A stretch of 62,992 bases of DNA, counting the filler, from Chthonomonadaceae bacterium (GTDB taxonomy: Bacteria > Armatimonadota > Chthonomonadetes > Chthonomonadales > Chthonomonadaceae), in the NCBI GenBank assembly GCA_035650735.1. It is 4 parts of 4 records of this genome, joined end to end, with 100 filler letters (N's around TTAATTAATTAA, not from the genome) between each part and the next. Parts side by side here need not be neighbours in the genome. Positions count along the whole stretch, not along the records: positions 1 to 18,420 come from DASRGZ010000109.1; 3 more parts are not named here. One strand, written 5' to 3'. A program made the translations under genes and the position numbers. Of this stretch, positions 1 to 55,670 are shown piece after piece. The notes under the pieces are model-generated. The model searched no databases and was not told the origin of the DNA. It was given only the letters and a program-made list of their open reading frames with translations. Each line of letters opens with the position of its first letter. The first letter of the stretch is position 1.

Positions 1-1
1 T

Positions 2-385
2 CTCCAACCCGACAGCCGCCGTCACGTCAGTAAAATGGCCCTTGCCGTCGCCTTTGTAGAGGGCAAGCTTGGGTCCGACCAGCAGAATATCGAGGAAGCC
101 GTCGTTATCATAATCCAGGAAGGCGCAGCCGTTGCCGATAGATTGCAAGATATTGAGAGGACGCTTGCCCGCAATCTGCCAACGGTAGTGAAGGCCGGCA
201 GACTCGGCCACGTCTACGAAGATCGGCGGGCCGGCCTGTTGTGGGGCGGGCGTAGCGGCGTGCGCAGGGACGTCCCGGGCAAGTGCGACGATGCGAGAAT
301 CGGTTGTTCTACAACCAACCAGGCTGACTAGGGGCAGAGCGATGGCGAACAGCGCGAATGCCTTGTGGGGTAAAGAGAGCTTCAT
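2..385 (-). CDS. CRTAC1/FG-GAP repeat lipoprotein, N-terminal part (runs off window edge)
   Basis: Manual translation (absent from ORF track): MKLSLPHKAFALFAIALPLVSLVGC (lipobox-like LVGC) ... GCAFLDYDNDGFLDILLV ... GHFTDVTAAVGL, typical FG-GAP motifs. Confidence 0.85.
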   Translation of the reverse strand, partial: MKLSLPHKAFALFAIALPLVSLVGCRTTDSRIVALARDVPAHAATPAPQQAGPPIFVDVAESAGLHYRWQIAGKRPLNILQSIGNGCAFLDYDNDGFLDILLVGPKLALYKGDGKGHFTDVTAAVGLE

Positions 386-439
386 TACAGAGCATTATAA
401 CATATCGGAGGCGGGAAAGGGAGGGGAGAGACCTCGCCC

Positions 440-712
440 CCGGCCCCCACTGCTAGGGTCGGGGCTGCAATGGTTCGCCCCTCCGCCTTGCGATCCTCAA
501 TTCTAGGGGAGGGGAGAGCAGAAGCCAACAAGGTCTCTGCCCACGTAGGTGTGGCGAGGCAGAGGGCTGTCGCAAGGTGTCGCAAGGCGGAGGCAAGGGC
601 CGTAACCCTGCCGACCCTGGCAGTCCATTGCAGGCCCGACCCTGGCAGTGGCGCGAGCGAGCGCAGCGCCGACCCTTGCAGCGCCCCACAGCGGCAGGGT
701 TTAGCCTGCCGC
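440..712. repeat. Composite intergenic repeat, family A
   Basis: Reiterated CCGACCCT(G/T)GCAG units in both orientations, GTCGCAAGGTGTCGCAAGGCGGAGGC, and hairpin GCGGCAGGGTTTAGCCTGCCGC; 540-616 is near-identical to 53513-53590. Confidence 0.85.
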
Positions 713-759
713 AAGGAGGTTAGGTCAGAAGCCCGCCTTTAGCCGCCCGAAACGAAGTC

Positions 760-3700
760 TTACTTCTCCAGCGTGATCGCGGCGATCTTGATCTCCGGAG
801 CGTTGGGCAACTGGAGGGCGATGAGCTTGCGCGGCTCCCGGATGCGGATCACGTAATGATAGAGCGCGACCGCGCCGGGCTGGAGGCCGTTGCGCGTCTG
901 ATGGCGGCGGGCCAGGAAGGCTATCGGCTCGCCGCGCTCCGGCGGGCGATCCCAGCGGCTGGCCGGAAGCACATACATATCCTCCGACTGGCTGGTCGGC
1001 TCCTGGAAGATCAGCTTCAGATCGGCAAAGAGGTCCTTGCCGGTGCTGGCCGCAACGATATGCAACAGGCGGCACTGTTCGCCAGACTTGCCGATCTGTA
1101 TCTTCTGGCCCTGGCAGGCGATAAAGTTTTTGGCCTTCTCGCCCTTGGGGCCCCATTGGAAACTGATACGCCGCTCCGACTCCGGCCCGCCCTTGCCTGG
1201 CAGCCAGATACCTGAGGGCACGGTGGCCGTATTGGCAAACGGAGGCATCGGCAGGGAGGGGAAGGCGTTGCCCTGACCGTCGAAGTTGCCGCCGGACAGG
1301 TCCTCCGCGTCCGTGATGCCGTCCAGATTATAGGCTTTGGTCAGGTCGGCGAAGGTAAGGCGTCCCTGGATGACCTGCACCTGATGCACGGTCTGATCAA
1401 AGGGGTGCGCGCTGGCCGTCGTAGAAGCCCAGGTATCCCCGACCTTGACATCCCAGACCAGCCAGTAGGTGCCGTCGTAGGGCGGCGGCGTGATCCAGGC
1501 GAGCATGTCCGTGACCTTGCCACCCGGCGGCACGTCCTGGGGCAGCGCGGTCGTCTCGTCGTCGAACACGTACTCCGTGCCGTCCAGATAGTACCAGTGA
1601 TATCCGACGCGCACGCTGTCCCGCTTCCAGGTTTGCGGGCCGACGTTTTGCAGGCTCAGGCGCACGGGCAGGCGGCGTTCGGCAGGCAGGGACGGCAGCG
1701 TTCCATCCGCCGTAAAGCGCACGCCAAAATCAAAATCCACCACGCCGAGAGGTGTGGGCGCGATGCTGACGCCCCTGGCGCTAGTGTCGGCCTCGGCGAC
1801 CGGGCGCAGAGAGGCGGTGCGCGGCGCGTCGGCGGCGACCTCCCACCGCGCAATATACATCCAGGGATCGGCCTGGCTCCAGACCGGCAGCGGCTTGCCC
1901 TGCGGGTCCACCAGCGCCAGCAGCAGGCGCACCGTCGCTGTCTGGCCGGGCGGCACATCCTCGGTCAACTCGGCGGTGGCGTCGGCGGTGGCGACGAGCG
2001 TCGGCGTCGGCGCGCTGCCGGAGGCGCTGCCCGTCAGCGCGGCGCGGTAGAGGCGCAGGGTGACCCGAGTACCGTCGGCCTTGCGCCAGGGCTGCGCCCC
2101 GTCGTTGCGGAGGGTCGCCTGCACTGGATAGACCCCGCCCGACTCCAGCGTGGTCGGTAGATCGGTGCTGAGGAGCGTCGCGGCCCAGGCCGAAACGCCG
2201 CCATCCGCCGCCGAGCGCACTTTCACGGGAACCTCCAGGCTCAGGCTGCCCGGCAGGTCGCCTATCCAGGCGTCCGCAGAGCCCTTTTTGGACGCCTCGA
2301 CCGCGCTGATCTCCAGCGTGTAATCGCCCGTCGGCAGCGCCGCGCCGTTCGCCCCGGCAGCCCTGATCGGAACCGTAAGGTTGACATCCTGCCCGGCGAG
2401 GACGGGATCGGACAGGGCCGTCAGCGCGCCGGTGGCGAGCACCTGATCGCCGCGCCGCCAGCGATAGGCGAAGGCGACCGGCAGCTGGTCTGAGCCGACC
2501 GGCCCCCAGCCCTCGGTGCCCGTGTTTTGCACGCGGACCGTCACCGCAACCGTGCTGCCGGAGAGCATCGTTGAGGGCGCATCGTGCCAGAGGAACTTCT
2601 GGCTGCGTGGGGCCGAGCCGGCAAACATGCGCGTGAAGACCCGCGTGAGATCGGCGTAGCTGAAGCCTGTCTCCAGCGTCGGGGCCAATTCGGTGCCGTC
2701 GGCGTAGTCGTTCCAGCTATCGAGCAGCACCCAATCGGGCTTTTTGCTGAGGGCGGCCAGCCACTCACGGCGGTAGGTCTCGCCGTCGCGGCGGGAACGC
2801 GCGACGGGCTTCTGGGCGCCCTCGTCGGACAGGAGGGGATCGTAGCCCGGCGAGACGCTGGCGGTCTTGATCCAGCCGTCGCCGTTGAACTGCCCGCCTT
2901 TTTCTCTGGCCGGAACGAAGTAGCCGTCCAGCTGCGCTTTCGGCTGGAATCCGCTTTCCCCCAGGATCAGGAGGTCAGCCCCGTCGAAGTCGGCGGCGAA
3001 GCGGCGGCGCACGGCCTCCACAAATGTGGAATCGAAATCCTTGAAGGCGCCGGCATCGGAGAGGAACACTACATAGGCCGTTCGCCCACCGTTTGTCGCC
3101 GTGAGCGGCACGACGTAGCGGAAGGGAGCGGGAATGGCGCGATAGAAGTCGCGGATCATTCCGTAGAGCGCCGCCTGCGCCCCCGGATCGCGCAGATCGG
3201 GCCGGTCGCCTAGCGCCTCGATCAGCGCGCTGGTATCCAGGTAGAGCGCCACCTGCGGGTAGTCCTGGCCGGACTGGCGCAGGGAGTTGAGGGCTTCGGC
3301 CAGCACCATCAGCCCTTTGCCGGCGTAAAGCTGGCGGTCGCGCGCCGTGCCGCGATAGACAGGCAGGACCACATCAATGCCGGCCCGGCGCATCTCCTGA
3401 AGCTGACGGCGGTGCCAGTCGGCGCGGTCGTAGCTCAGCCAGGGGCCGACCCCCTCAAGCGGATGGTGGATCAGCGCGCTGCTGCCGTCGGGCCGCAGGA
3501 CGTTCTGGGCGGGAGCGGCTTTGCGCGTGTCCGCCTGGTACCAGTAGACGTAGCGGGCCAGCACGAGGGGCGCAAGACGCTGCGCCCGATGCGCCGCAAG
3601 GGAGGGCAGTGACGCCTCTGGCTCCGATAGCGGCACCGCCGGGCGGGGCGGGCGCGGCGTGAACTCCGGGCGGACGCGTGCGGCTAGTGTGTTGGACAGA

Positions 3701-4596
3701 GGCGAGCCGGCGGTCCGATTGCTGATGCGCTCCCCGAACTCAAAGGCCGTGATGTGGTTCCACTCGCCGCCGCTCAGCTCGCCATCAATGACGGGCTTGT
3801 TGGCAAGGACGCGCGCGCAGATGATAGCTCCGGAGGGGGCCACGTTGGGCGAGTTGCTGAAGAGGATCTCGGTCCACAGGGAGGGATTGTCGAGATCCGA
3901 GCCGCCCTTGACCCTGGGCGACAGGCTCTGTAGCGGCGGACTGCCCGGCACAGTGCTTTGCGCGGCGACGTTGAAGCCCATCTTCGCGCCAGGCTCCGGC
4001 TTGCCTCCCAGATCCACCCAGGGAATGGCGACCTCCAGGGTATAGCCGGGCATGGTCAGGCCCCCGGCCAGCGTCGCGCCCTGCGGGTTCACCTTGAACT
4101 TGAGCAGGCTCGCTAAGAGCGCCGTGCGCTTGGCCTCCTGCGCAACGGTATCTTTCTCGTTGGTGTTGATGTCTTCCAGGCGCTGCTGGAGGTCTTTGAG
4201 GCCCCGGAAGAGCGGCTTTTTGTCCGGGCCGGAATAGAGCTGGGCGCCGCCCGCCGCGCTAAGCGCCACGGTGAAGGTATGCGCGTTGCGCTGGGTCGCC
4301 TGGCGGTTGTCGTCTGTCTGGAGGGAGATGATCGCGGCATCGTCCTCCAGGGGATTAGAGAAAGGCTCGCTGTTTTTGCCGTTGAGGGTCGGCTTGTTGA
4401 TCTGGAGAGCGATATAGAGGTAATCGTCGTCCCATGCCGTGAAGCCGAGGATACGGTTGGTGGCATCGGAGGAGCTAGGCGCTGCCGAAGCGGGCGCGTT
4501 GGTCGGAGGGGGAAGGGATTGCGATTGCGTCGGGGTGAGGCCCCCCGGGCGTAGCAGCAGCATCGCCGTTACGAATAGCAGGGCAAGCTTGCCCAT
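760..4596 (-). CDS. Large secreted multidomain protein (CBM9/DOMON-like + glycoside-hydrolase-like barrel + Ig-like domains)
   Basis: Start moved to ATG 4596 (AAGGAG RBS, signal peptide MGKLALLFVTAMLLL). WDDDYLYIAL and GYTLEVAIPW are CBM9-like; YVYWY, EMRRAGIDVV and LDSWNDYADGTELAP are GH99/GH71/DUF5010-like; repeated V.N.G...W Ig-like modules. Confidence 0.7.
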   Translation of the reverse strand: MGKLALLFVTAMLLLRPGGLTPTQSQSLPPPTNAPASAAPSSSDATNRILGFTAWDDDYLYIALQINKPTLNGKNSEPFSNPLEDDAAIISLQTDDNRQATQRNAHTFTVALSAAGGAQLYSGPDKKPLFRGLKDLQQRLEDINTNEKDTVAQEAKRTALLASLLKFKVNPQGATLAGGLTMPGYTLEVAIPWVDLGGKPEPGAKMGFNVAAQSTVPGSPPLQSLSPRVKGGSDLDNPSLWTEILFSNSPNVAPSGAIICARVLANKPVIDGELSGGEWNHITAFEFGERISNRTAGSPLSNTLAARVRPEFTPRPPRPAVPLSEPEASLPSLAAHRAQRLAPLVLARYVYWYQADTRKAAPAQNVLRPDGSSALIHHPLEGVGPWLSYDRADWHRRQLQEMRRAGIDVVLPVYRGTARDRQLYAGKGLMVLAEALNSLRQSGQDYPQVALYLDTSALIEALGDRPDLRDPGAQAALYGMIRDFYRAIPAPFRYVVPLTATNGGRTAYVVFLSDAGAFKDFDSTFVEAVRRRFAADFDGADLLILGESGFQPKAQLDGYFVPAREKGGQFNGDGWIKTASVSPGYDPLLSDEGAQKPVARSRRDGETYRREWLAALSKKPDWVLLDSWNDYADGTELAPTLETGFSYADLTRVFTRMFAGSAPRSQKFLWHDAPSTMLSGSTVAVTVRVQNTGTEGWGPVGSDQLPVAFAYRWRRGDQVLATGALTALSDPVLAGQDVNLTVPIRAAGANGAALPTGDYTLEISAVEASKKGSADAWIGDLPGSLSLEVPVKVRSAADGGVSAWAATLLSTDLPTTLESGGVYPVQATLRNDGAQPWRKADGTRVTLRLYRAALTGSASGSAPTPTLVATADATAELTEDVPPGQTATVRLLLALVDPQGKPLPVWSQADPWMYIARWEVAADAPRTASLRPVAEADTSARGVSIAPTPLGVVDFDFGVRFTADGTLPSLPAERRLPVRLSLQNVGPQTWKRDSVRVGYHWYYLDGTEYVFDDETTALPQDVPPGGKVTDMLAWITPPPYDGTYWLVWDVKVGDTWASTTASAHPFDQTVHQVQVIQGRLTFADLTKAYNLDGITDAEDLSGGNFDGQGNAFPSLPMPPFANTATVPSGIWLPGKGGPESERRISFQWGPKGEKAKNFIACQGQKIQIGKSGEQCRLLHIVAASTGKDLFADLKLIFQEPTSQSEDMYVLPASRWDRPPERGEPIAFLARRHQTRNGLQPGAVALYHYVIRIREPRKLIALQLPNAPEIKIAAITLEK

Positions 4597-4747
4597 CACA
4601 CTCTCCTTTGCTCGCAAAACATAGAACAAGAAAATGCAGGGCGGCGGGGATTGCCGATGACCCAAACTGCGCGATAGTAGCATACATTCGGAGTCAGTGT
4701 CAAGGGCAGGAAGCGGAGGCGGGAGGGATGCGCAGACCACACCCAGC

Positions 4748-4790
4748 AAAAAAACGGCCCCGGTTCCGCTTGCAGGGGAACCGGGGCGTT
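4748..4790 (-). terminator. Intrinsic terminator of PEP-CTERM gene
   Basis: Minus strand CCCCGGTTCC/GGAACCGGGG stem followed by a T7 tract. Confidence 0.8.
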
Positions 4791-4817
4791 GGTGGCTATA
4801 CGTCTGGCGAGCGTGGT

Positions 4818-6083
4818 TTACGCCTGCTTTTTGCGGCGGCGCAGCAGCAGGCTGCCGCTGACCAGACCGCCCAGGAAGAGGGAGACGGTGCCGGGCTCAG
4901 GAACGGCGACCTGGGAGGGAGTGAACTGATCGAAGAAGTAGTAGAACGTGAATGTGCTAGTCCCACCTGCCGGAACATCGATCAGCGGGGAGTAAAGCAC
5001 CAGGCCGGTCTCGGCAGCTTGCGAGGAGAAGGCTACCTGATTGCGGAAATCCGTGCCCTGGAAGTCGGTGCCGAAGTCGGTGGTCGAATTGACGACGTTG
5101 CCGGCAGTATCCACAAAATCTGCGCCGTTGTCGCCGGTGTGCAGCATGACATAGTTAAAATTGGGGGCCGTGCCGGGCTCAAGGGGGTTTGGACTGAACG
5201 GATCTAACAGATCGACGTTGGTATCCAGATTGCCGCGATTGAGCAGATCGCCCTCCAGGAACTCGTTGGGCGTAGCGACCAGGGCCGTGCCGTGCGTATT
5301 GGGGTCGGTGGGAAAGACGCCGATGCCCAGGTTCAAATTGGCGTTGGTGGCGTTGATCAGGAAGGCGCCCGGGAACAGATCCCGCAGATAGGACTGCGTG
5401 GTAATGTTGCTTCCCTGCGGCAGGCCCGGGTTGGGATTGACCACGCGTGCATAGCGCAGGTTGGTGATAGCGCTAGTGCCGGCGGTATTATCGAAGGTGA
5501 CGGTGAACTTGGCTCGGTTCAAGTTGTTATTGGTATTGAAGGTGACGCTCTGCCGCAGGACCAGGCCCGGAACGCCGGTGGTCAGCGCGGAGTTTGCCGT
5601 CAACTGGCTATTGATCGCGCCGGTGGTGGTGAAGGCTCCGGGGACGGGGGTGAATCCGGTATAGGGCATCCAACTGCCGTCGCCGATACGAATGGCATAG
5701 CCTTCCGCGTTGCTGGAGAAGCCGGTGATATATTCGCGTTTGGCCCCAACCGAGTCGCCGACGGTGCCAGCGCCGGCGCCTATCGTGGAGGTACTGCTAA
5801 AGAGTGCGCCATAGGTGCCGCTGGTTACAGACCCGTCATTGGCAACGCCGGTCGGATGTCCGGTGGAATCCAGCGGGCCGGCGGGCTTGGCCAGGCCCTG
5901 ACGAGGAGCGCCCAGATCGCCGCGCTCATTCAGGTAGAGGGCCAGAAATTCGCCGTTTAACAGGCCATAGGCCTCTGTCGGCCCTGTGAACGTAAGGCCC
6001 TGCGCCTGCGCGCCGGTGGAGAGTAGCAGCCCGGCAAGCGATAGGGCTGCCAGACTGAGCAAGCCTTTCAGGCGAGATTTCAT
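4818..6083 (-). CDS. PEP-CTERM sorting domain surface protein
   Basis: Signal peptide; C-terminal VPEPGTVSLFLGGLVSGSLLLRRRKK; AAGGAG RBS. Confidence 0.92.
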   Translation of the reverse strand: MKSRLKGLLSLAALSLAGLLLSTGAQAQGLTFTGPTEAYGLLNGEFLALYLNERGDLGAPRQGLAKPAGPLDSTGHPTGVANDGSVTSGTYGALFSSTSTIGAGAGTVGDSVGAKREYITGFSSNAEGYAIRIGDGSWMPYTGFTPVPGAFTTTGAINSQLTANSALTTGVPGLVLRQSVTFNTNNNLNRAKFTVTFDNTAGTSAITNLRYARVVNPNPGLPQGSNITTQSYLRDLFPGAFLINATNANLNLGIGVFPTDPNTHGTALVATPNEFLEGDLLNRGNLDTNVDLLDPFSPNPLEPGTAPNFNYVMLHTGDNGADFVDTAGNVVNSTTDFGTDFQGTDFRNQVAFSSQAAETGLVLYSPLIDVPAGGTSTFTFYYFFDQFTPSQVAVPEPGTVSLFLGGLVSGSLLLRRRKKQA

Positions 6084-6169
6084 TGTGTTTCGATCTCCTT
6101 TCCAATTTCCAGCGGCGTCACCGCGCCGGGGTCAAGGGGTCGTGCTTGGAGATGACATCAACTACCATA

Positions 6170-6463
6170 CGATTTACCCCATGCGGGCAGAGAATAGTCG
6201 GGTTCCAGGTTTCTTTAGGGTTCTAAGGGTGCTAGTTCCCCCCGCGCGTGGGGGAATAGGCTCACGGACAGGCCAGGGGGAGCCAGGCATCGCTAGTTCC
6301 CCCCGCGCGTGGGGGAATAGCATGCGCCCCTCCACATCTTTCACGAGCGCAAACTAGTTCCCCCCGCGCGTGGGGGAATAGCTTAGAACCTTAGAACCCT
6401 AAAGAAACCTTAAGCACCCTCTAGAACCCTAACCACGGTTCACCCCGCACATGCGGGGAATAG
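6170..6463 (-). CRISPR. Orphan type I-E-like mini CRISPR array: 3 identical repeats plus 2 divergent outer repeats
   Basis: Identical 28-nt CTAGTTCCCCCCGCGCGTGGGGGAATAG at 6232-6259, 6293-6320, 6354-6381 with two 33-nt spacers (61-nt period); variant CGGTTCACCCCGCACATGCGGGGAATAG at 6436-6463; degenerate copy at 6170-6197. Minus-strand form (..TTCCCC..GGGG..AACCG) matches I-E orientation. Confidence 0.88.
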
Positions 6464-6711
6464 GTCGGCAAGATACAGCCCCAATAACAGCAAAAGACAT
6501 AGGACCGAATAGCGTGCGGCTGCGCCGCCCCAGGGCCGAGCCGTCGAGCGGCTGCGTTGGGAGGCGCGAGAGCCTTACGCCGCCGTCGCGGCGGAATGTG
6601 ACTGCCAAACCTGGGTTTGCATTAATTGTGCCAAAGGGCCATATGCGCCGAAAAACCTGGTATTATTTTGGGAAATTAAGCTGGAAAGAGAAGTCGGTTC
6701 AGGAAAGACCT

Positions 6712-6787
6712 AAACACGGATAGGACGGATGCAACGGATAAGGGTCTGGAATCCGTATTATCCGTTGCATCCGTCCTATCCGTGTTT
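6712..6787. repeat. Perfect 30-bp inverted repeat with internal 9-nt periodicity
   Basis: AAACACGGATAGGACGGATGCAACGGATAA (6712-6741) and its exact reverse complement (6758-6787), 16-nt loop. Confidence 0.95.
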
Positions 6788-6819
6788 CTCTAGCGATGGT
6801 GGGGAATAGAAGAGCGTGC

Positions 6820-7551
6820 TTATTGGGGTGCCGTTTTGGGGGCTGAGGCGGCGCCGATCTGCTGGCTGCTGCCGTCGGCGGGAGCGGCCTCTCCCTCGAC
6901 AACGGCGAAGGAGTCGCGCCACTCTTTAGCGCGCAGGGCACGCAGGTGCGCCGCTTCTCGCTCCCGCTGAATATCCTCGTCGCTGGGGGCGGTTTCCTCG
7001 AAGCTCTCGGCCTCCTCGGCGATGATCCGATGCGCGAAGAGACAGCCAAACAGCGCGATAATGCCGGTTGCGCATAGCATCACCGATTGCCAGGAGCTAT
7101 GCCAGGCAAAGTTGATGAAGCCGATACCGCTGAAGTAGAGCGCCGCCGCCCCGAAGTAGCAGCGCCGCGCCCAGACGGTGCCGGGCTGGACGGTCTCGGC
7201 GATGGCGGCCAACGCGGCCAGGCCGGCCACCAGGATCAGCGCCGCCGGGCCGATCTCTTCGATTGGCTCATAGGCCAGCAGGGGGGGAAGGGGCTGGGCG
7301 TGAAGGCTATCCCGGAAGGCCAGGAACGTCACGCCGAAGCAGAGCGTGACCATCAGCAACTGCCGCAAGCGCGGATGCAGCAGCGCCGTCAACAGCAGCA
7401 GAACCGCCAACGGCAGTACGGACTCGCGCCCTTTCATCCAGGCGGTAATGGCCGGTTCCAGCAGAACAATCAGGAATGCCGCCAGGGCAGGTCCCACCCC
7501 ACTTAAGATCGGTATGTAGCGCCGCAATGCGTCATTTCTCCCTGCCGCCAT
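6820..7551 (-). CDS. Hypothetical integral membrane protein
   Basis: About six hydrophobic segments followed by a charged C-terminal tail. Confidence 0.75.
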   Translation of the reverse strand: MAAGRNDALRRYIPILSGVGPALAAFLIVLLEPAITAWMKGRESVLPLAVLLLLTALLHPRLRQLLMVTLCFGVTFLAFRDSLHAQPLPPLLAYEPIEEIGPAALILVAGLAALAAIAETVQPGTVWARRCYFGAAALYFSGIGFINFAWHSSWQSVMLCATGIIALFGCLFAHRIIAEEAESFEETAPSDEDIQREREAAHLRALRAKEWRDSFAVVEGEAAPADGSSQQIGAASAPKTAPQ

Positions 7552-7740
7552 CCCTCGAAAAGCGGCTGCGTGGGGCGCCGTCGCCCTCTTTCCTCTGCCG
7601 ATACCAGGCTCGCGGGCGATGCTATCGCACCCAGTACCAGTATATCAGGCTTCCCAAAGAGTGTCAAGCAAAGCAAGCAAAGCCACCGACTCGACAAGGA
7701 GGAACAGGTTCAAGCAAAGCCGTTAGGAGCGGGAAACGGA

Positions 7741-7808
7741 GAAGCCGGGTCCCCCCCTTCCCTGTGAGCCTAGCGAACGTATTAGGGAAGGGGGACGGGG
7801 GGTTAGGT
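7741..7808. repeat. REP-like palindromic repeat, family B
   Basis: Near-identical inverted copy at 55671-55738 (AGCCGGGTCCCCCC..CCCTGTGAGC..AGCGAACG..AGGGAAGGGGG.CGGGGGGTTAGGT). Confidence 0.85.
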
Positions 7809-8110
7809 CAAGAAGGACGGCCTTGACGGACGACAACAATTCGGAACAGGAACCCGACCTGGAGTGTCGAACTTATAATCGGGCACGGCAGTCGGGACTC
7901 TGGCGCGGGCTGTTGCAGGGCAGAGGTACACCCCCGCGCCAAAATGGCTGCCTTCGGCTATAGGCTGAACCGGCAAAACTGCCGATAAGAAGGCTACGGC
8001 CTTGCCTGGCGGGTGCAGCCGTCGGTTCCGGCCTGGCACGAGAGGGTGCGCTTGCCGCGTGCCCGATACTGCATTTACGTTCGGATTTGCCCCTGGGAGG
8101 AAACCAGTTT

Positions 8111-9844
8111 ATGACTATCTCCGTACCCCCGTCTTCCAAAGCGCCGGTTCCGCAGGCTTACGAGCAGCCTGCCGGGAGCGCGCGGCAGCGGCCCGAGGAG
8201 CCGATTGTGTTTATTATCTTCGGGGCCTCCGGCGACCTGACCCGGCGCAAGCTGATCCCGGCGCTCTATAACCTGGCCTGCGCCAACCTGCTGCCGCCGC
8301 AGTTCGCGGTCATCGGCTTCGCCGTCACGCCCATGAACGACGACTCCTTCCGAGAGGCCATGCGCCAGGCGGTCCAGGCCAGCACGGAGGTCACCTCGTT
8401 TAATCCCGACCTTTGGGACACGTTCGCCAAAGGGCTGCGCTATATCACCGCCGATTTTCTGGCTCCCGAGGGCTATCAGAAACTGAGAGATCGGATCGGC
8501 GAGATCGAGTCGCATGCTGGCCGTACTATCAACCGCCTGTTCTATCTGGCCACGCCGCCCAGCTTCTACGATGACATCGTGACGCGGCTCGGCTCCCATA
8601 AGCTCGTCACCAAACATGCCAAGCAGCAGGACGAATGGACGCGTGTCATCGTCGAAAAGCCCTTCGGCAACGACCTGGCCTCGGCCAACGCGCTCAACAA
8701 CGCGATTCATCGTGTCTTCAAAGAGGATCAGATCTATCGGATAGATCACTATCTGGGCAAGGAGACGGTCCAGAACATCCTCGCTTTCCGCTTCGCCAAC
8801 TCCATCATCGAGCCTATCTGGAACCGCCGCTACGTAGACCATGTTCAGATCACGGCGGCGGAGACGCTGGGCGTGGAGCATCGGGGCAAGTACTACGAGG
8901 AGGCGGGCTGCCTGCGCGATATGTTCCAGAACCACATGCTGCAACTGCTCTCGATGGTGGCGATGGACCCGCCGATCCGCTATAGTGGCTCCAGCGTGCG
9001 CGACCGCAAGGCCGATGTGCTGCGGGCCATCGTGCCGATCAATCCGGAGAACCTGGGCGATACCGCCGTGCGCGGCCAGTATGGGCCGGGAATTATTAAC
9101 GACACGAGCGTGCCGGGCTATCGCCAGGAGGAGGGGGTCAACCCCAACTCCAACACAGAGACGTTCGTGGCCTTGAAGCTCTTCGTGGATAGCTGGCGGT
9201 GGGCGGACGTGCCGTTTTACCTGCGCTCCGGCAAGCGCCTGCCCAGGAAGCTCACCGAGATAGCCATCCAGTTCAAGCGCGTGCCGCATCTATTCTTCCA
9301 CCTGACTCCGGAAGACCAGATCGAGCCAAATCTGCTCATCATGCGTATTCAGCCGGACGAGGGCATCTCGCTGCGCTTTGGAGCCAAGCTGCCCGGCCCG
9401 GAGATGCACATTCGGCAGGTGCAGATGAATTTTAGCTACGCCGAAGCGTTCAACGTTCAGCCCGCAACGGCCTATGAAACGCTGCTCCTGGATGCGATGC
9501 AGGGCGACCAGACGCTCTTCACCCGCAGCGACACGGTGGAGATGGCCTGGACGATCCTGGAGCCGCTGTTGGACATCTGGCAGGCGACCAAGCCCTTCCA
9601 GCCCTTCCCGAACTACGCGTCTGGCACCTGGGGCCCCGCCGCTGCCGATGCGCTGATCGCGCGCGATGGACGCGCCTGGCACAATCCGCCGGCCTCGCAG
9701 CCGCCAACCGCCACCCATCCGGTCGTGCGCGTGGAGTGTGCGGGCGAGCCGATGGGCGCGCTGCGTAGTCGCCCTGGCAATGGGCAGGGCGATGGTCGCG
9801 GAGGGGATGAGAAGCAGGAGCCAACCGAGCGTTCCCGCGCTTAA
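8111..9844 (+). CDS. zwf: Glucose-6-phosphate 1-dehydrogenase
   Basis: [53 protein letters not shown]; start ATG 8111 after GGGAGG. Confidence 0.97.
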
Positions 9845-9890
9845 AGGGCTAGGCCCCCACCCCCTAGCGGCAGGCTAAACCTTGCCGCAC

Positions 9891-9922
9891 AAAAAGGCGT
9901 CCATCCGAAACGGATGGACGTC
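9891..9922 (-). terminator. Terminator downstream of tRNA-Thr
   Basis: Minus strand CGTCCATCCG-TTT-CGGATGGACG stem then CCTTTTT. Confidence 0.75.
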
Positions 9923-9938
9923 CGCAAGAATGCTTCTA

Positions 9939-10010
9939 AGCCGACGGGGAGATTCGAACTCCCGACCGGCGGTTTACGAAACCGCTGCTCTACCTCTGAG
10001 CCACGTCGGC
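9939..10010 (-). tRNA. tRNA-Thr(CGT)
   Basis: GCCGACGTGGCTCAGAGGTAGAGCA GCGGT-TTCGTAA-ACCGC ... GTTCGAATC ... CGTCGGCT cloverleaf. Confidence 0.96.
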
Positions 10011-10023
10011 GCGTGCTCGCCAT

Positions 10024-10052
10024 AGTATAGCAGAGGCGAGCGTGTTTGTCAA
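10024..10052 (-). promoter_or_regulatory. Sigma70 promoter of tRNA-Thr
   Basis: TTGACA-17 nt-TATACT on minus strand. Confidence 0.85.
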
Positions 10053-10092
10053 GGCCGATCCGAGCGCCATCGGCAGTCCCCTTCCCCGCTCG

Positions 10093-11649
10093 CTACCAGC
10101 GTTCCGTGATGGATTTGGCTTGCAGGAAGTGGCTCAGATAGTCGCGGCCCCCGGCCTTGCTGTTGGTGCCAGAGAGGTTAAAGCCGCCGAACGGCTGCAC
10201 GTCCACCAGCGCCCCGGTGATCTTACGGTTCAGGTAGAGGTTGCCAACGTGGAACTCGTGGCGGGCGCGCTCCAGGTGGACGCGGTTATTCGAATAAACC
10301 CCGCCCGTCAGCCCGTAGATCGTGCCGTTGGCGATGTCGAGGGCATGGTCGAAGTCGCGGGCGCGTATCACCGGCAGCACCGGCCCGAAGATCTCCTCCT
10401 GCGCGATGCGCGCCGTCGGCAGCACGTCGGCGATAATGGTCGGGCGGATAAAATAGCCCCCCTCGCGTGGCTCTTCGGAAACCTCGCCGCCCAGCACGAC
10501 CCGGCCCTCCTCACGCCCGATGGCGATATAGGACATGATCTTGCGGTAGGCGTCGGCATCAATCACCGCGCCCAGGTAGTTCTGCGGGTCCGCCGGGTCG
10601 CCGATGGTCAGCTCCGAGGCGCGCTTTACCACCTTCTCCAGCAGCGCATCATAGATGTTCGTATGGGCGATCAGCCGCGAGCAGGCGGAGCACTTCTGCC
10701 CCTGGAACCCAAACGCCGACACGACTGCGCCCTCCGCCGCCGCCTCCAGATCCGCGCTCTCGTCCACGATGATGGCATCCTTGCCGCCCATCTCCAGGAT
10801 GGCGCGCTTGAGCCACTTCTGTCCCGGCTGCGGCGCGGCGACCCGCTCGTAGATGCGCACGCCCACATCCTTGCTGCCCGTGAAGGAGACGAAACGAATG
10901 CCGGGGTGCCCCGTAAGCGCCTCGCCGACGACCTCGCCCGATCCCGGCACGAAGTTGACGACGCCGGGCGGCAGACTTGCCTCTTCCAGCAGCTCTACAA
11001 ACTTCGCGGCGATCACCGGCGTCTGCTCGGCGGGCTTAAGGAGGACCGTGTTGCCCGTGACGATGGGCGCAACCGTCGTTCCCACCATGATCGCCAGGGG
11101 GAAGTTCCAGGGCGTGATGACCGCGCCCACGCCCAGCGGGAAGTAGCGTACCTCGTTCTCCTCGCCCGGATAGGGCGTCGTCGGATGCGGCTGGCCCCAG
11201 CGCAGCGCCTCCCGCGCGTAGAATTCCAGAAAATCTATCGCCTCGGCGGCGTCGGCGTAGGCTTCGCTCCAGTTCTTGCTGGCCTCATAGACCATCCAGG
11301 CGGCAAACTCATAGATACGGCGGCGCAGAATGGCGGCGGCCTTGACCAGATAGCGAGCGCGGACCTCCACCGGAACGCGCGCCCACTCTACAAACTTCTC
11401 CGAGGCCGCCAGCACCGCCCGATCCACCAGCAGCGGCTCGCCGTCGCAGACCGCGCCGACGACCTGCGCCGGGCAGGCCGGGTTGCGGCTGACCGTCTTG
11501 TTCTCGGTCCAGATACGCTCCCCGCCAATAATGATCGGATACGTGCGTCCCAATTCGCCCGCGACCGTAGCCAGCGCCACCTCCATCTTGCGGCGCGGCC
11601 CCTCCTCGGCAAAGTTGACATAGGGTTCGTTCTGAAAGGGCGTGAACAT
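10093..11649 (-). CDS. pruA: L-glutamate gamma-semialdehyde (P5C) dehydrogenase
   Basis: FQNEPY N-terminus, PWNFPLAI, FTGSKDVG, LEMGGKDA, AFGFQGQKCSACSR, EEIFGPV; start set at ATG 11649. Confidence 0.93.
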   Translation of the reverse strand: MFTPFQNEPYVNFAEEGPRRKMEVALATVAGELGRTYPIIIGGERIWTENKTVSRNPACPAQVVGAVCDGEPLLVDRAVLAASEKFVEWARVPVEVRARYLVKAAAILRRRIYEFAAWMVYEASKNWSEAYADAAEAIDFLEFYAREALRWGQPHPTTPYPGEENEVRYFPLGVGAVITPWNFPLAIMVGTTVAPIVTGNTVLLKPAEQTPVIAAKFVELLEEASLPPGVVNFVPGSGEVVGEALTGHPGIRFVSFTGSKDVGVRIYERVAAPQPGQKWLKRAILEMGGKDAIIVDESADLEAAAEGAVVSAFGFQGQKCSACSRLIAHTNIYDALLEKVVKRASELTIGDPADPQNYLGAVIDADAYRKIMSYIAIGREEGRVVLGGEVSEEPREGGYFIRPTIIADVLPTARIAQEEIFGPVLPVIRARDFDHALDIANGTIYGLTGGVYSNNRVHLERARHEFHVGNLYLNRKITGALVDVQPFGGFNLSGTNSKAGGRDYLSHFLQAKSITERW

Positions 11650-11764
11650 GGCCTTCTCCCTGATTGCTGTCTCTAGCATATCTATTGTATACATACGCAC
11701 TAGCTCTCTCCAGAGTCGGCGCTGGAGATAGAGGCGGCTTCCGGCTGCGCAATGAGGAAGGGTA

Positions 11765-12142
11765 CTATCCGGTTCCCTGAGGTCGGCGCTGGAGGAAGAG
11801 ACGGCTTCCAACCCGTATATTGTGCGCGGAGATCGTTCCGGCGGGCAGTTCGATCACGACGCGCGCGCCCCGCACCGGCCCGCCGATCCGCCACGGACAC
11901 AGGTTAGGAACGGCGCGCAGCACGGCGCCCCCAGCATCGAGGAACAGCACATCTATCGGGAAGCGCAGGAAGAACGTATGGATGCCGTTGCAGGGCTCCA
12001 GCCAGAGGCCGCTGTCCGCCGTCAACTCCGCCCGGCCCATGAGGCCAATCGCGCGCTTCCAGGCCGTGTCCGCCACTTCCAACCGCGCCGCCAGCACGCG
12101 CCCGGTATCTGCCTCACGCAATTCCGCCCATGAGGTCGCCAT
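11765..12142 (-). CDS. DUF192 family protein
   Basis: VADTAWKRAIGLMGR...IHTFFLRFPIDVLFLD...VIELPAG. Confidence 0.88.
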   Translation of the reverse strand: MATSWAELREADTGRVLAARLEVADTAWKRAIGLMGRAELTADSGLWLEPCNGIHTFFLRFPIDVLFLDAGGAVLRAVPNLCPWRIGGPVRGARVVIELPAGTISAHNIRVGSRLFLQRRPQGTG

Positions 12143-12255
12143 GCCCTGCCATTCGCCGCTCCTCGCGCGCTTCCCTGCCGCATCGGGGTCCTTCCGTTTT
12201 CCCTGTACTCGCCGCCGGGCACGGAAAGTACCCGGCTCTAGGGCCTAACGGCCAA

Positions 12256-12430
12256 GCGACTGCAAGGGACGCCGCTCAACGGTTCGCGGCTCGGCCTTGC
12301 GACTGGCGGACGCCCCGTAAAGCCCGGTGTTCCGTTCGCAGTCGCAAGGCAAAGGCACGCGTGTCGCGAGGCGGAGGCGCCAACCATGGCAGCGCCGACC
12401 CTGGCAGTGGCAGTGCCGTCCCTGGCAGTC
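12256..12430. repeat. Composite intergenic repeat, family A (diverged copy)
   Basis: GTCGCAAGG...GTGTCGCGAGGCGGAGGC...CCGACCCTGGCAGTGG...CCCTGGCAGTC, same motifs as 440-712. Confidence 0.75.
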
Positions 12431-12566
12431 GGTTGGCGGCAGGCCCACCAGACGGGTACTTTTCGTGCCCGGCAAGGATCGGAGGTTTTCAGCCCCCGGC
12501 TCGGTGGCCTGCGTCCGCTAAAAATGCGACAGCGCCGAAAACGGAATGCCCTTGGTCCTTCCAGAC

Positions 12567-14603
12567 TTAGCCAGATTCCAGAGGGCGTTGCGCGTTTCGC
12601 TCCTGCCAGGTACGCTGTTCGCTATCCGCGATCTGTTCCAGCCATGCACCCGCCTGCGCCTCCTGATGCGCCAGGCTAACAACCCGCCCGACGTAGACCA
12701 GCAGCAGCAGACTGATCAGGGGAACGGCGAGCGCGCCAAAGCCGCGTACCAGCCCTACCGAAATGGGCACGCGCCGCACCCGGCTTATCAGCGCCAGCAG
12801 GATCACTAGCAGCAGCGGCAGCGCCAGCCACAACTCAAAGGCAATGCCAAAGAAGCCTTCAGAAAAGAGCTTATCAACGGTCTCGGAGTAGCTCCAGAAC
12901 CCGAATAAGACGCTCACGAGGCGCACGGCGGCGTGCGCGCCTGCCGCTCCGACCGCCAGCACGCTATAGAAGCCCAGGATCGTGATGGCTATCGCAAAGA
13001 GGGTCGCTTTTGTCAACTGCTCTGAGGTGAACCGGCCCACGACTCCGACCAGCGCGGCCCAGGCCAGAATCGCGGCCACGGTCGGCAGCAGGCCGCCATC
13101 CGGGGCAAAACCTCTGTAAATAAACGGGCACGCCGCAAGGCCGATGGCAAGGCCGATGCCCAGGTGAATCCCCAGTTTGATCGGCGGCGATATCGGGGCG
13201 GGAGGACGCATGTCAAAGCGGCGCAGATATAGCAGCAGCGCGGCCACGCCGCCCAGCAGCAGCAAGAGCGCGCATTCCATCAAAAGCCATTGATTTCCCA
13301 ACCACGCGAACGGGAGGAGCTTATAGGAGTTATACACATCGTCAGGCAGGGGCGCCGCCATAACGGTCTGGTTGAGGGAGTACTGGCGCCAGACCCATCC
13401 GGCTTCCTCCGCGTGATGGTGCCCATGCAAAAAGCGCACGTACTGCTCCATAACTTGCCGCTGCCAACTCTCTTCCGACTGCGAGCCGAGCAGCCATCGA
13501 GCATGACTCTGGTCACCTGACGATGCTGGCTGCCGTTGCCCGCTCTTTTTCGACGGTCCGGCCTTCATCCTGGAGTTGGGCCTGGATGGAGCCTGTTCTG
13601 CCGGATGGCTATAGGCGATGTCGAACAGGCTCACAGCGGCCAATGTTCCCATGCGCCGGCGGTCTTGGTCGCGCATGAGGGCGGCAACGCGCATCAGCCT
13701 GCCGCGCAGCGCGATGCCGCCCTCTATGTCTCCGCCGCGCTCCTGCTGAATGGCCTGCCACACCACCAGCTTAGCAACGGAACGCAGTTGGTCATAGTAG
13801 GACTCCAGGGTGGTATCCCAGGCAAACCAGCGCGCCACGTTGCTCTGCTTGCCAAATGCAGCCGCATTCAAGCGCCAGAGACCGTGCGCCTCTTCCTGGG
13901 AGTAATCCTCCCAGCGTGGCTTTGCGGCGGCGCGCGCCAGGTCTTCCAGCATCTCCCGATCTCGATGCGCGGCACCGTGCGCCACCGCCAACAGCATCGG
14001 AAAGAAGGCATTCTCCGGGTCCACTCGCTCTCCACTGCGCGCCACCCGTTCATACGCCGCGAGTTGCGATGGCGCGTTGGCGCCTATGGGCGCCTGATCC
14101 TGCTTGGGCGGCGCGCTGCCCTCCAGCCAGAACTCCTCCGCGCGGTGAATCCGGATGACGCCCTGACAGGCGTGCCGCAGATAGGCTGCGTAGGGCAGCG
14201 GATCGGAGGGGAAACGGTCTATCTGCGCTTGCAGGCGCGGCAGCAGCGAGAAGAGGCGATCCAGCGACGTAGAAGAGGTGTCTATGCTGAGCGTCGTCGG
14301 CTGCCCGGCATGGATGGCATAGGCTACCTGCGCTGCGGCATCGTCGCGTAATTGGCGGGCCGCAAAATCCTGGCGCTCTCGCTTCCCCGAATCGCCGGAG
14401 GAAGCCGCGTGGAGCGCCCACAGGCCCGTGCTGCCTTCTCCCAAACCCAGCGTAGCGGCAAGCTGCGTGCGCACAATCCAGCCGGTTCCCGGCGCCAGGC
14501 CGACCGCCAGCAGCGCCCCCACAGCTACTCCCAGCAGCCACCACTGCCAGCGTCCCCGCCGGGGCTGGAAGGCTCTCGATTGCGTCGGTTGCGAACTTGG
14601 CAT
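12567..14603 (-). CDS. Hypothetical membrane protein (N-terminal TM, large helical extracytoplasmic region, C-terminal multi-TM)
   Basis: 678-aa ORF with AAGGAG RBS, third gene of the ECF cluster; hydropathy pattern. Confidence 0.75.
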   Translation of the reverse strand: MPSSQPTQSRAFQPRRGRWQWWLLGVAVGALLAVGLAPGTGWIVRTQLAATLGLGEGSTGLWALHAASSGDSGKRERQDFAARQLRDDAAAQVAYAIHAGQPTTLSIDTSSTSLDRLFSLLPRLQAQIDRFPSDPLPYAAYLRHACQGVIRIHRAEEFWLEGSAPPKQDQAPIGANAPSQLAAYERVARSGERVDPENAFFPMLLAVAHGAAHRDREMLEDLARAAAKPRWEDYSQEEAHGLWRLNAAAFGKQSNVARWFAWDTTLESYYDQLRSVAKLVVWQAIQQERGGDIEGGIALRGRLMRVAALMRDQDRRRMGTLAAVSLFDIAYSHPAEQAPSRPNSRMKAGPSKKSGQRQPASSGDQSHARWLLGSQSEESWQRQVMEQYVRFLHGHHHAEEAGWVWRQYSLNQTVMAAPLPDDVYNSYKLLPFAWLGNQWLLMECALLLLLGGVAALLLYLRRFDMRPPAPISPPIKLGIHLGIGLAIGLAACPFIYRGFAPDGGLLPTVAAILAWAALVGVVGRFTSEQLTKATLFAIAITILGFYSVLAVGAAGAHAAVRLVSVLFGFWSYSETVDKLFSEGFFGIAFELWLALPLLLVILLALISRVRRVPISVGLVRGFGALAVPLISLLLLVYVGRVVSLAHQEAQAGAWLEQIADSEQRTWQERNAQRPLESG

Positions 14604-14617
14604 CTTCTGGCTCCTTC

Positions 14618-15151
14618 CTATTTCGCGCGCTTATCCGCCGGGCGCACGGGCCTGTTGGCACCCGCAACGCCCCCAGGCACGCCACCGCGCGGGGCCGATA
14701 TCGCTCCCGGCACGAAGCCGGTTATGACTCCCATCGGCGGGCGCCGTTCTGTGGAGAGGGGCGGAAGCGGCTGATGGGAAATTCGCAGATGCGCGGGCAG
14801 GGCAGGCAGCGGCGGCGCGGGCCGGGCCTGATGGATACGCGGATAGGGCGGCGGCAGGGTTGGCAGCGCGCGCTCCTGCCAGGTGGCGATGGCATAGGCT
14901 GTCCCAAAGCCAACTGCGGCCGGCAGCAGCATCCAGCGTGCGCGCCGGAGGACCTGCCGCCACCAGGGATCGAAATCGCGCCCGGAGGTCATGGCGGCCA
15001 GCACGCGGGCGTTGAAGTCCGCGTGGGGCGGGATCACCGGCAGGCTGTGCAGGCCGGCCCGCAAGAGAGCTTCCTGACGCGCATCCAGCCGCACTTCGCT
15101 CTCCGTCTCTTCCGGGGCGGGCGTCGCAGGGGTCGGCAAGGGCTCAGACAT
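14618..15151 (-). CDS. Putative anti-sigma factor (single TM)
   Basis: Overlaps the ECF sigma stop; L..LP...P..DF.ARVLA segment then one TM and a Pro-rich tail. Confidence 0.6.
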   Translation of the reverse strand: MSEPLPTPATPAPEETESEVRLDARQEALLRAGLHSLPVIPPHADFNARVLAAMTSGRDFDPWWRQVLRRARWMLLPAAVGFGTAYAIATWQERALPTLPPPYPRIHQARPAPPLPALPAHLRISHQPLPPLSTERRPPMGVITGFVPGAISAPRGGVPGGVAGANRPVRPADKRAK

Positions 15152-15836
15152 GGTGACTCTCCTCCATCGCGCGCTGCCATAACGTTCGGAGCTGGGCGCG
15201 GGCCGCGTTCAGGCGCGAGCGCACGGTTCCCACCGGAATCTCCAGCGCCTCGGCGATTTCGGCATATTCCAGCCCTTCGAGCTCCCGCAGCACGAGGGCG
15301 GCGCGCAGCGGCGGCGTCAGGCGATCCAGCAGATTCTCGATCAGCAGCCTGGTTTCGAACGCCTCGTTGCTGAGCGGCTCCTGCGACTCCACAAACGTCT
15401 CGTCTCCTGAGATCGGCTCGCTGTCTCGCCGCCACCAAGGAGCGCGCTTGCGGTTGAGGCAAAGCCGCACGATAATGCGATAGAGCCAGGTATAAAAGGC
15501 GCAATCCCCCCGAAAGCGGCGTATCTGCCAGAAGGCGCGCAGGAACGCCTCCTGCGCCAGGTCTTCGGCCTCCGCCGGACGCCGCAGGATGTGCGCTGCC
15601 AGCCGGACGGCCCGGTCACGGTAGCGGATCATCAGCCAATCAAAGGCTGCTTCCTCGCCCGCCTGCGCGCGCCGCACCCAGCTCGCCTCGTCCGGGTCGA
15701 GCGGCAGGCGCAGATGGGCCAGTTCCACCTCCGGCTCTGCCATCGCCTGCGGCGTCTGTATCGTCTCAGGTCTCATCCGCTCCTCGCTGCCCACAGGAAG
15801 CCTCCACGCGAGAGATGCTTTGCCCGAAAAGTCCAT
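15144..15836 (-). CDS. ECF RNA polymerase sigma factor
   Basis: AEDLAQEAFLRA, FYTWLYRI, EGLEYAEIAEALEIPVGTVRSRLNAAR; exact start uncertain. Confidence 0.93.
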   Translation of the reverse strand: MDFSGKASLAWRLPVGSEERMRPETIQTPQAMAEPEVELAHLRLPLDPDEASWVRRAQAGEEAAFDWLMIRYRDRAVRLAAHILRRPAEAEDLAQEAFLRAFWQIRRFRGDCAFYTWLYRIIVRLCLNRKRAPWWRRDSEPISGDETFVESQEPLSNEAFETRLLIENLLDRLTPPLRAALVLRELEGLEYAEIAEALEIPVGTVRSRLNAARAQLRTLWQRAMEESHHV

Positions 15837-16052
15837 CGCGTTCGCGCTCCTCTCCGCATTCTACCGATACCGACACGGGCCGGTGGCCGGGAGTTCGCCC
15901 CGGCAAGAAATTTGCAGAGAGACTATTCTGGTACAATGGAAGAGAGGAGCGCGAAGTTGGGAGGCAGCAAAAAGGCTCATATCCGCTTAAAGGCGAATAT
16001 GAGCCGATTCGGAGGACTTTTGAGCCAGTTATCTGTGAGTAACTGTCAACAA

Positions 16053-16126
16053 TAGCGGAGGTCAGACTCGAACTGACGACTCTACGGGTATGAACCGTAT
16101 GCTCTGACCAACTGAGCTACTCCGCC
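16053..16126 (-). tRNA. tRNA-Met(CAT), elongator type
   Basis: GGCGGAGTAGCTCAGTTGGTCAGAGCA TACGG-TTCATAC-CCGTA ... GTTCGAGTC ... CTCCGCTA; paired first acceptor position argues against initiator. Confidence 0.92.
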
Positions 16127-16138
16127 AGAAGCCCTATA

Positions 16139-16167
16139 ATTTTACCATAGCCATGCCCGTTTGTCAA
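16139..16167 (-). promoter_or_regulatory. Sigma70 promoter of tRNA-Met
   Basis: TTGACA-17 nt-TAAAAT on minus strand. Confidence 0.8.
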
Positions 16168-16405
16168 AACCAGGTTAAGAAAAAAGCGGCGTCCCGCTCC
16201 TGCGTTGCGTAATGGCCACGCCGGAAGGGAGGCAGGAGGAGAGCGCGCGACGCCGAACTATAGGCTGTTGGAGGCATTGTCGGGCACCCATTGCGCCCTG
16301 GATGCCCTCCGGGACGATGCCGTCGCGCCTGTCACGAAGCCAGACCGCGCAAAGAGCGTTGCTGGGAGGAAAATAGGCTGTTTGGATTAAGGGGAGGGAA
16401 CGGCA

Positions 16406-17818: not shown

Positions 17819-17835
17819 GGAGCAAGACTCAGAGG

Positions 17836-18420: not shown

Positions 18421-18520
18421 NNNNNNNNNNNNNNNNNNNNNNNNNNNNNNNNNNNNNNNNNNNNTTAATTAATTAANNNNNNNNNNNNNNNNNNNNNNNN
18501 NNNNNNNNNNNNNNNNNNNN
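18421..18520. other. Artificial contig linker
   Basis: N run with central TTAATTAATTAA (stops in all frames). Confidence 0.98.
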
Positions 18521-19075: not shown

Positions 19076-19104
19076 CCGCGACACCGCGTCGGTGCAAGGG
19101 ATTT

Positions 19105-47083: not shown

Positions 47084-47183
47084 NNNNNNNNNNNNNNNNN
47101 NNNNNNNNNNNNNNNNNNNNNNNNNNNTTAATTAATTAANNNNNNNNNNNNNNNNNNNNNNNNNNNNNNNNNNNNNNNNNNNN
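47084..47183. other. Artificial contig linker
   Basis: N run with central TTAATTAATTAA. Confidence 0.98.
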
Positions 47184-55632: not shown

Positions 55633-55670
55633 GAAGAAGAGGGGCCAGCTTCTGCTCTCCCTCGTGCTTT

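What the first reader, a model, noticed from the sequence alone, without database searches (positions are those of the whole stretch)
6170..6463. Mini CRISPR array bracketed by mutually complementary, tandem-repeat 'spacers'
Seen: three identical repeats and two ordinary 33-nt spacers are enclosed by two abnormal spacers (34 nt at 6198-6231; 54 nt at 6382-6435). These share a perfect 22-bp inverted repeat: AGGTTTCTTTAGGGTTCTAAGG (6207-6228) vs CCTTAGAACCCTAAAGAAACCT (6389-6410). Both are built from ~9-nt (C)TTAGAACC(C)-like units, and the outer repeats (6170-6197, 6436-6463) differ from the inner three. Established: normally acquired spacers are unrelated to each other and uniform in length. 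Inference, three alternatives: (a) an inverted-repeat-bounded mobile or invertible cassette carrying a two-guide array; (b) a pre-crRNA that folds into a 22-bp duplex gating processing; (c) a self-directed regulatory guide.
Basis: partly seen in the sequence, partly recalled or inferred. Interest (0 to 1): 0.82.

Follow-up and report, generated by a model that had tools for sequence, protein, structure and literature searches.

The report
Hairpin-wrapped orphan CRISPR mini-array
The two odd "spacers" are the arms of a small hairpin repeat scattered through this genome; the hairpin carries a CRISPR repeat at its tip, occurs in this form at three gene leaders and took up real spacers there, one from the host's own chromosome, which hints at how stray CRISPR arrays get seeded.

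Summary
The 34- and 54-nt 'spacers' are not guides. They are arms of an intergenic hairpin family built of 8-10-nt units that has expanded in this genome (0 of 41 family relatives). A variant type I-E repeat sits at the hairpin tip. The same unit (outer repeat, arm, variant repeat, arm, outer repeat) occurs at three unlinked gene leaders with 2, 1 and 0 inner spacers; in one copy the inner part is flipped between the arms. The inner spacers look like type I-E acquisitions: 61-bp period, and one matches the host's own gene 32/32 with an AAG PAM. No I-E cas gene was found (MAG 97.6% complete). These units belong to 19 dispersed orphan I-E repeat sites, 16 in sense with the next gene. A congener's site is empty. 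Best reading: a probably neutral, lineage-specific composite of a mobile hairpin and relic CRISPR repeats that served as a leaderless Cas1-Cas2 integration site. The mobiliser is unknown and no present function is shown. This scan noted analogous hairpin-in-array cases on other DNA, not this sequence.

The parts
6619..6633 (-). sigma-54-like promoter site, putative start of the transcript that carries the array
   Evidence: 1 mismatch to the recalled -24/-12 consensus (not significant alone, 41 of 200 shuffles match); a similar site lies at the orthologous place in G001; no sigma-70 site found
6436..6463 (-). outer repeat A, canonical-like type I-E repeat, first in the transcript
   Evidence: aligns with the dispersed repeats; same family forms long 61-bp arrays beside I-E cas7 in relatives
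6382..6435 (-). upstream hairpin arm (54 nt), member of the genome-wide tandem-unit family
   Evidence: shares 20 nt with the matching arm at C127
6389..6410 (.). one half of the perfect 22-bp inverted repeat
6354..6381 (-). inner variant repeat 1 (nearly palindromic; its 3' end matches the start of an arm unit)
6321..6353 (-). spacer; 6322-6353 match G000:C91:1275-1306 32/32 with a 5'-AAG PAM, inside a small conserved ORF
6293..6320 (-). inner variant repeat 2
6260..6292 (-). spacer, source not found
   Evidence: no hit in own genome (6, 18), IMG/VR exact (32), phages (68); only partial weak plasmid hits, best E 0.9 (69)
6232..6259 (-). inner variant repeat 3 (oldest), fused to the downstream arm
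6198..6231 (-). downstream hairpin arm (34 nt)
   Evidence: shares 18 nt with the arm at C19
6207..6228 (.). other half of the perfect 22-bp inverted repeat
6170..6197 (-). outer repeat B, degenerate type I-E repeat
4818..6083 (-). PEP-CTERM protein gene in whose 5' leader the unit lies
   Evidence: ORF; TIGR02595 over cut-off, E 3.7e-5

Best explanation
A lineage-specific composite of two dispersed repeat families. (1) Shown: a hairpin family with tandem-unit arms has spread through intergenic DNA of this genome; one version carries a variant type I-E repeat in place of its short loop and lies between two ordinary I-E repeats. (2) Shown: this unit exists at three unlinked gene leaders with shared junctions, so it was copied; inferred: by recombination at the outer repeats or by whatever moves the hairpins. 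(3) Supported: recombination between the arms flipped the inner part in one copy. (4) Inferred: while a type I-E Cas1-Cas2 was present, it inserted spacers at the hairpin-tip repeat instead of the first repeat, without a normal leader, probably helped by the hairpin; one spacer came from the host chromosome. (5) Inferred: with no I-E effector in the genome now, the array makes no working guides and the self-match is harmless; the arms simply fold the mRNA leader into a long stem. It is most likely neutral baggage.
For: Arm family: 22 loci with 3 or more units; 39 arms against 7 and 5 in shuffles; 6 of 10 short-loop hairpins share one 5-nt loop, at the position where the variant repeat sits. 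Three composites share junctions. Polarity test: C19 outer ends fit the same polarity (13/12 of 15 against 9/9 and 10/10 flipped), inner ends fit the flipped one (13/13 and 13/11 against 10/11 and 10/8). I-E signatures: 61-bp period, 8 nt plus G after the anchor motif as in the E. coli ruler (PMC5039180 Results), AAG PAM, 32/32 match, chance 7e-13. Only 2 of 18 same-strand neighbour pairs of dispersed repeats are identical, both inside this hairpin; the C19 inner pair differs by one G. No I-E cas7, cas6e, cas2, cas8e (tblastn); the only cas1, cas3, cas5 lie in a locus with an unrelated repeat. G001 sites empty. Composite not found elsewhere.
Against: No mobilising enzyme was tied to either repeat; the two RAYT-like transposases are flanked by other hairpins. 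The arms are low-complexity, so the inversion margin is only 2-4 bases per end. The base before the oldest inner repeat differs from the other two, and the C19 interval is 27+34, so the duplication rule is not met cleanly. One pair at C126, outside any hairpin, differs by only 1 nt, so recent acquisition is not strictly confined to hairpins. The sense bias (16 of 19) and one solo repeat shared with G001 are not explained by neutrality. The genome is an incomplete MAG, so an unbinned I-E module cannot be excluded. PMC6698737 (passages) reports that cruciform formation by a repeat's own inverted repeats is not needed for adaptation.
Confidence: 0.6

Rival explanations
1. Spacers first: both arms were ordinary spacers taken from opposite strands of one of the genome's own hairpin repeats, then grew by unit slippage; the three-repeat array was copied afterwards.
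For: One arm is 34 nt at C109 and at C127, near spacer length; the longer ones (54, 61) differ by about whole units; the family is abundant in the chromosome.
Against: The inner repeat is altered to pair with the arms and sits exactly where plain hairpins carry their loop; arm pairs around repeats are more complementary than any of 11 plain source hairpins; no exact 22-mer in IMG/VR and only a 23-nt, E 4 phage hit.
Confidence: 0.15
2. Regulatory device: dispersed I-E repeats in gene leaders are kept as RNA processing or stability signals, and the arms act as a switch that hides them; the self-spacer silences the C91 gene through a Cascade without Cas3.
For: 16 of 19 sites are in sense with the next gene against a 52% null (p 0.004); 7 of 10 clear dispersed sites in relatives likewise, by eye; stem pairs 90% kept; arm duplex p 0.99; 4 of 19 sites are enclosed by an inverted repeat of 14 nt or more.
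Against: No I-E Cas6 or Cascade found; only 1 of 7 orthologous leaders checked is shared; the inverted-repeat excess vanishes when the three related units are counted once (2 of 17 against 11 of 250, p 0.2); regulatory mini-arrays in print lie in cas loci and match promoters partially (10.1101/2023.03.03.530964, passages), while this match is full-length and in a coding region.
Confidence: 0.12
3. Active invertible switch: an invertase flips the inner array to turn guide production on and off.
For: 22-bp inverted arms; the C19 copy is flipped relative to the other two.
Against: No joint or strand change in the contigs of 4 runs (contigs drop rare variants); no recombinase noticed among the ORFs of 1-20000 (by eye); no effector.
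Confidence: 0.07
4. Assembly or binning artefact.
For: MAG with 3.4% contamination; repeats and hairpins are hard to assemble.
Against: Identical second assembly; contigs run through both arms; C91, C109, C19 and C127 have ordinary composition (ranks 61, 92, 158, 96 of 175).
Confidence: 0.03

Closest known systems
Type I-E CRISPR array (orphan)
   Same: Repeat family, 61-bp period, anchor-to-end spacing, AAG PAM at the one identified protospacer.
   Different: No cas genes or leader nearby; new spacers lie in the middle, inside a hairpin; outer 'spacers' are repeat-family arms; 19 dispersed sites.
REPINs / BIME-type mosaics (PMC3116915, passages)
   Same: Short non-coding inverted doublets forming hairpins, intergenic, lineage-specific expansion, inserted into or next to other repeats.
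   Different: Arms are tandem 8-10-nt units, not palindromic REPs; no cognate RAYT identified; the loop cargo is a CRISPR repeat that accepts spacers.
Regulatory mini-arrays and single repeat units, crlRNA (10.1101/2023.03.03.530964, passages)
   Same: Short arrays with degenerate repeats; a self-directed spacer with the canonical PAM.
   Different: Not in a cas locus; full instead of partial match; target is coding DNA; not conserved in relatives.
Neo-CRISPR arrays by off-target integration (Nivala 2018; seen only as cited in 10.1101/148544 and PMC7054753)
   Same: Spacer uptake away from the leader, spawning small arrays in the chromosome.
   Different: Here the acceptor is a true I-E repeat that had itself been moved, not a look-alike host sequence.

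Membership tests
Type I-E CRISPR array | Repeat of the I-E family | tested here: met
   Same pattern forms long arrays on the cas7e contig in 4 of 7 cas7e-bearing relatives; inner variant differs from the consensus
Type I-E CRISPR array | About 61-bp period with unique spacers | tested here: met
   Met for the two inner intervals (61, 61), not for the outer two (64, 79 between hits)
Type I-E CRISPR array | Protospacer with AAG PAM | tested here: met
   1 of 2 spacers has an identified source, with AAG
[quoted passage not shown] | Cognate cas genes in the genome | tested here: not met
   cas7e, cas6e, cas2e, cas8e not found; MAG 97.6% complete
Type I-E CRISPR array | Leader with growth at the first repeat | tested here: not met
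   Identical repeats are internal; the first repeat differs by 8 edits from the next; upstream DNA is the host gene's leader, shared with the empty site
Type I-E CRISPR array | Processed crRNAs | not testable with these tools
   No RNA holder listed
REPIN | Two inverted units forming a hairpin, intergenic, multi-copy | tested here: met
   14 two-armed loci compared; intergenic
REPIN | Cognate RAYT flanked by the same repeat | tested here: not met
   3 Y1 transposase hits, none flanked by these arms or by I-E repeats
REPIN | Excision or insertion events in reads | tested here: inconclusive
   Only contigs available; no joints
crlRNA regulatory mini-array | Located in a cas locus | tested here: not met
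   Flanked by a PEP-CTERM gene and a gene of no family
crlRNA regulatory mini-array | Partial match to a promoter | tested here: not met
   32/32 match within a conserved ORF
MITE | Terminal inverted repeats plus target-site duplication | tested here: inconclusive
   Arms are inverted, but the copied unit includes direct outer repeats; the empty site is too diverged to read a duplication
Invertible switch (inverton) | Both orientations in one population | tested here: inconclusive
   One orientation in contigs; opposite orientation only at a paralogous site

The most novel reading that the evidence does not exclude
A self-seeding CRISPR unit: a hairpin element that carries a type I-E repeat at its tip, copies itself into gene leaders where host promoters transcribe it, and whose cruciform replaces the leader as the signal for Cas1-Cas2, so that each new copy starts a new array. 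It would be a natural route for the birth and spread of orphan arrays, and the sense-oriented I-E repeats in gene leaders across this family would be its older traces.
Probability: 0.25. Interest if true: 0.78.

Novelty: new variant of a known kind. Interest (0 to 1): 0.5.

Why it matters
How orphan and extra CRISPR arrays arise is open. This genome holds three copies of one unit at different stages (0, 1 and 2 spacers), which shows that a mini-array can be copied to new promoters and can then grow at an internal, hairpin-enclosed repeat. That is directly testable with a type I-E Cas1-Cas2 from a relative. It also warns that array finders will call repeat-family arms 'spacers'. The limit: it is seen in one genome and probably does nothing today.

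Tried and rejected
Phage or plasmid origin of spacers and arms: no exact match in IMG/VR for either spacer, the C19 spacer, the variant repeat or the 22-mer (exact matches only); no useful BLAST hit. Composite elsewhere: 5 hits in GTDB genomes, all 5 read as chance, with no repeat or arm; 2 metagenome hits, both this organism; one search used a faulty pattern that missed G000 itself and is discarded. Arm family in 4 of 300 other phylum genomes; none of 10 loci read had an I-E repeat. Self-targets among other dispersed spacers: no further full-length spacer match; other long hits were to repeat families. An autonomous gene between arms: none seen. IS-end origin of the units: no support. Rfam: 5 weak hairpin matches, all below gathering score. 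General excess of enclosing inverted repeats: not significant after merging related loci. No RNA holder listed. The protein family of the self-targeted ORF was not determined, so its function stays open; my codon model did not call it, though its DNA is conserved in 6 of 40 relatives. Literature: 10 searches (listings and abstract starts only) showed no description of this arrangement; the library lacks most subscription papers, Nivala 2018 was not held, and no supplements were read.

Full report
Observation. Every element is at the stated place. The repeats are type I-E-like when read on the minus strand, the same strand as the downstream PEP-CTERM gene (4818-6083). A sigma-54-like site at 6619-6633 (consensus recalled, not significant alone) has a counterpart at the orthologous place in the congener G001, so the unit probably lies in that gene's 5' leader. 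A second assembly is identical and contigs from 4 runs show no rearranged form; these sources are not fully independent of the genome.

The odd spacers. Both are built of units found all over this genome: 22 loci hold 3 or more units, and a looser scan gives 39 arms against 7 and 5 in two shuffles, 8 of the 39 lying inside genes and probably noise. Typical members are head-to-head hairpins in intergenic DNA with a 3-6-nt loop; 6 of 10 share one loop. One pair encloses about 250 nt of another repeat family, so the loop can take cargo. A strict three-unit pattern hits 13 times in G000, in 0 of 41 family genomes and in 4 of 300 phylum genomes, so the expansion is recent and local.

Three copies. 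The same arrangement occurs at C19:53100-53307 and C127:16190-16366. C109 has three variant repeats and two spacers, C19 two and one, C127 one worn repeat and none. C109 and C127 share the junction of outer repeat A with the arm and 20 nt of arm; C109 and C19 share the junctions of both arms with the inner repeat; all three have a similar arm to outer repeat B junction. The variant repeat occupies the loop position and pairs continuously with the arms. The copied unit therefore includes the outer repeats. In C19 the inner repeats face the other way while the outer ends keep the polarity of the other two copies, which is what recombination between the arms would give; the margin is small because the arms are low-complexity. 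G001 lacks the unit at the two clearly syntenic sites; the third comparison was not clearly orthologous.

The true spacers. The inner period is 61 bp, as in the long arrays beside cas7e in relatives. The variant keeps 8 bases plus G after the anchor motif, matching the ruler described for E. coli, where a deletion behind the anchor is made up with the neighbouring base (PMC5039180, abstract and Results read); this would explain why arm-like bases end each copy. Spacer 6322-6353 matches G000:C91:1275-1306 at 32 of 32 with AAG upstream (chance 7e-13). The target is the coding part of a small ORF conserved in 6 of 40 relatives at 70-87% DNA identity, so the exact match points to this genome's own copy. 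The other spacer and the C19 spacer have no identified source.

No cognate Cas. cas7e, cas6e, cas2e and cas8e were not found (each control rang in Thermus), nor by tblastn with proteins from six relatives' I-E loci. The only cas1, cas5 and cas3 are on C93 beside an array with an unrelated repeat (subtype labels I-B and III-A are my reading of the ORFs). The MAG is 97.6% complete, so this is 'not found', but a perfect self-target with a consensus PAM is easiest to carry without interference.

Wider setting. A repeat profile finds 19 sites on 17 contigs, with 1-5 mostly worn repeats and unrelated spacers (weaker clusters under 15 bits dropped). Sixteen of 19 are in sense with the next gene (null 52%; p 0.004; crude gene caller, three sites related). 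Of 18 same-strand neighbour pairs only 2 are identical, both inside the C109 hairpin, so the newest acquisitions happened there and not at the first repeat. An RNA model matches 23 of 41 family genomes, a count that mixes long arrays, dispersed repeats and weak hits; 10 clear dispersed sites were read, 7 in sense by eye. One solo repeat is shared between G000 and G001 at the same gene; 6 other orthologous leaders lacked it. How the solo repeats first spread, and why in sense, is unexplained.

Mechanism. Shown: family membership of the arms, three copies, empty congener sites, I-E signatures, self-match. Supported: one internal inversion. Inferred: copying by recombination at the outer repeats or by the hairpin's mobiliser; leaderless uptake helped by the hairpin. 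A review states that Cas1-Cas2, without a CRISPR locus, integrates near inverted repeats able to form cruciforms (PMC9180970, passage); against this, cruciform formation by a repeat's own palindrome was not needed for adaptation (PMC6698737, passages). The RNA folds far better than shuffles (z -7.9) and the arm duplex is nearly certain, yet shuffling the arms raises only one inner hairpin (0.06 to 0.58) and leaves the other two low, so gating by the arms is weak.

Comparison. It works like a REPIN/BIME mosaic (PMC3116915, passages) whose cargo is an orphan I-E array. It fails membership of a CRISPR-Cas system, of REPINs (no cognate RAYT) and of regulatory mini-arrays (10.1101/2023.03.03.530964, passages). 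Off-target birth of arrays is known (10.1101/148544 and PMC7054753, passages), and self-spacers from naive acquisition are known (PMC6990116, passages). Ten searches showed no account of a hairpin-tip repeat that is copied and gains spacers. Gene labels such as greA, pilT, prfB, rpoB and Nif3 are recalled from the look of translations and come from no call.

Verdict. Real, explained in anatomy, new as a combination, confined to one genome and probably without function. Interest 0.5.

Noticed in passing
window 6712-6787: Perfect 30-bp inverted repeat of a second tandem-unit hairpin family, with at least six further copies in the genome and absent from the G001 site.
   Followed up: partly
G000, 19 sites; G001 L102, L107, L116, L085; G022 L088; G048 L087; G019 L092: Worn type I-E repeats and mini-arrays in gene leaders across the family, mostly in sense with the next gene, for example before an rpoB-like gene in G022. 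Origin unexplained; may deserve its own study.
   Followed up: partly
G000:C32:19721-19746 and G001:C36:400-429 (L107): A solo I-E repeat directly before the start codon of the same gene in both congeners: an old, vertically kept copy.
   Followed up: partly
G000:C69:3854-3990 (L053): A second, unrelated case: the 20-nt spacer of a two-repeat array is complementary (16 nt perfect) to sequence further along the leader of a prfB-like gene, enclosing the second repeat.
   Followed up: partly
G000:C19:51300-51603: The same arms enclose about 250 nt of another dispersed repeat family; at C21, C60, C119 and C194 a single arm is nested in a third hairpin element.
   Followed up: no
G000:C93:5500-22500: CRISPR locus with an unrelated repeat and what look like I-B and III-A genes; this contig has the most atypical tetranucleotide profile of 175, so it is a recent import or a binning stray.
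   Followed up: partly
G000:C166:80026-80454 and 12519-12951: Two RAYT-like Y1 transposase genes, each flanked by its own GC hairpins.
   Followed up: partly
window 416-742, 53433-53590, 55613-55854, 57899-58180: Further dispersed GC-rich hairpin and mosaic repeat families; this genome is rich in them.
   Followed up: no
window 18421-18520, 47084-47183, 53591-53690: N-plus-linker joins: the window is several contigs stitched together, so distances across them mean nothing.
   Followed up: yes
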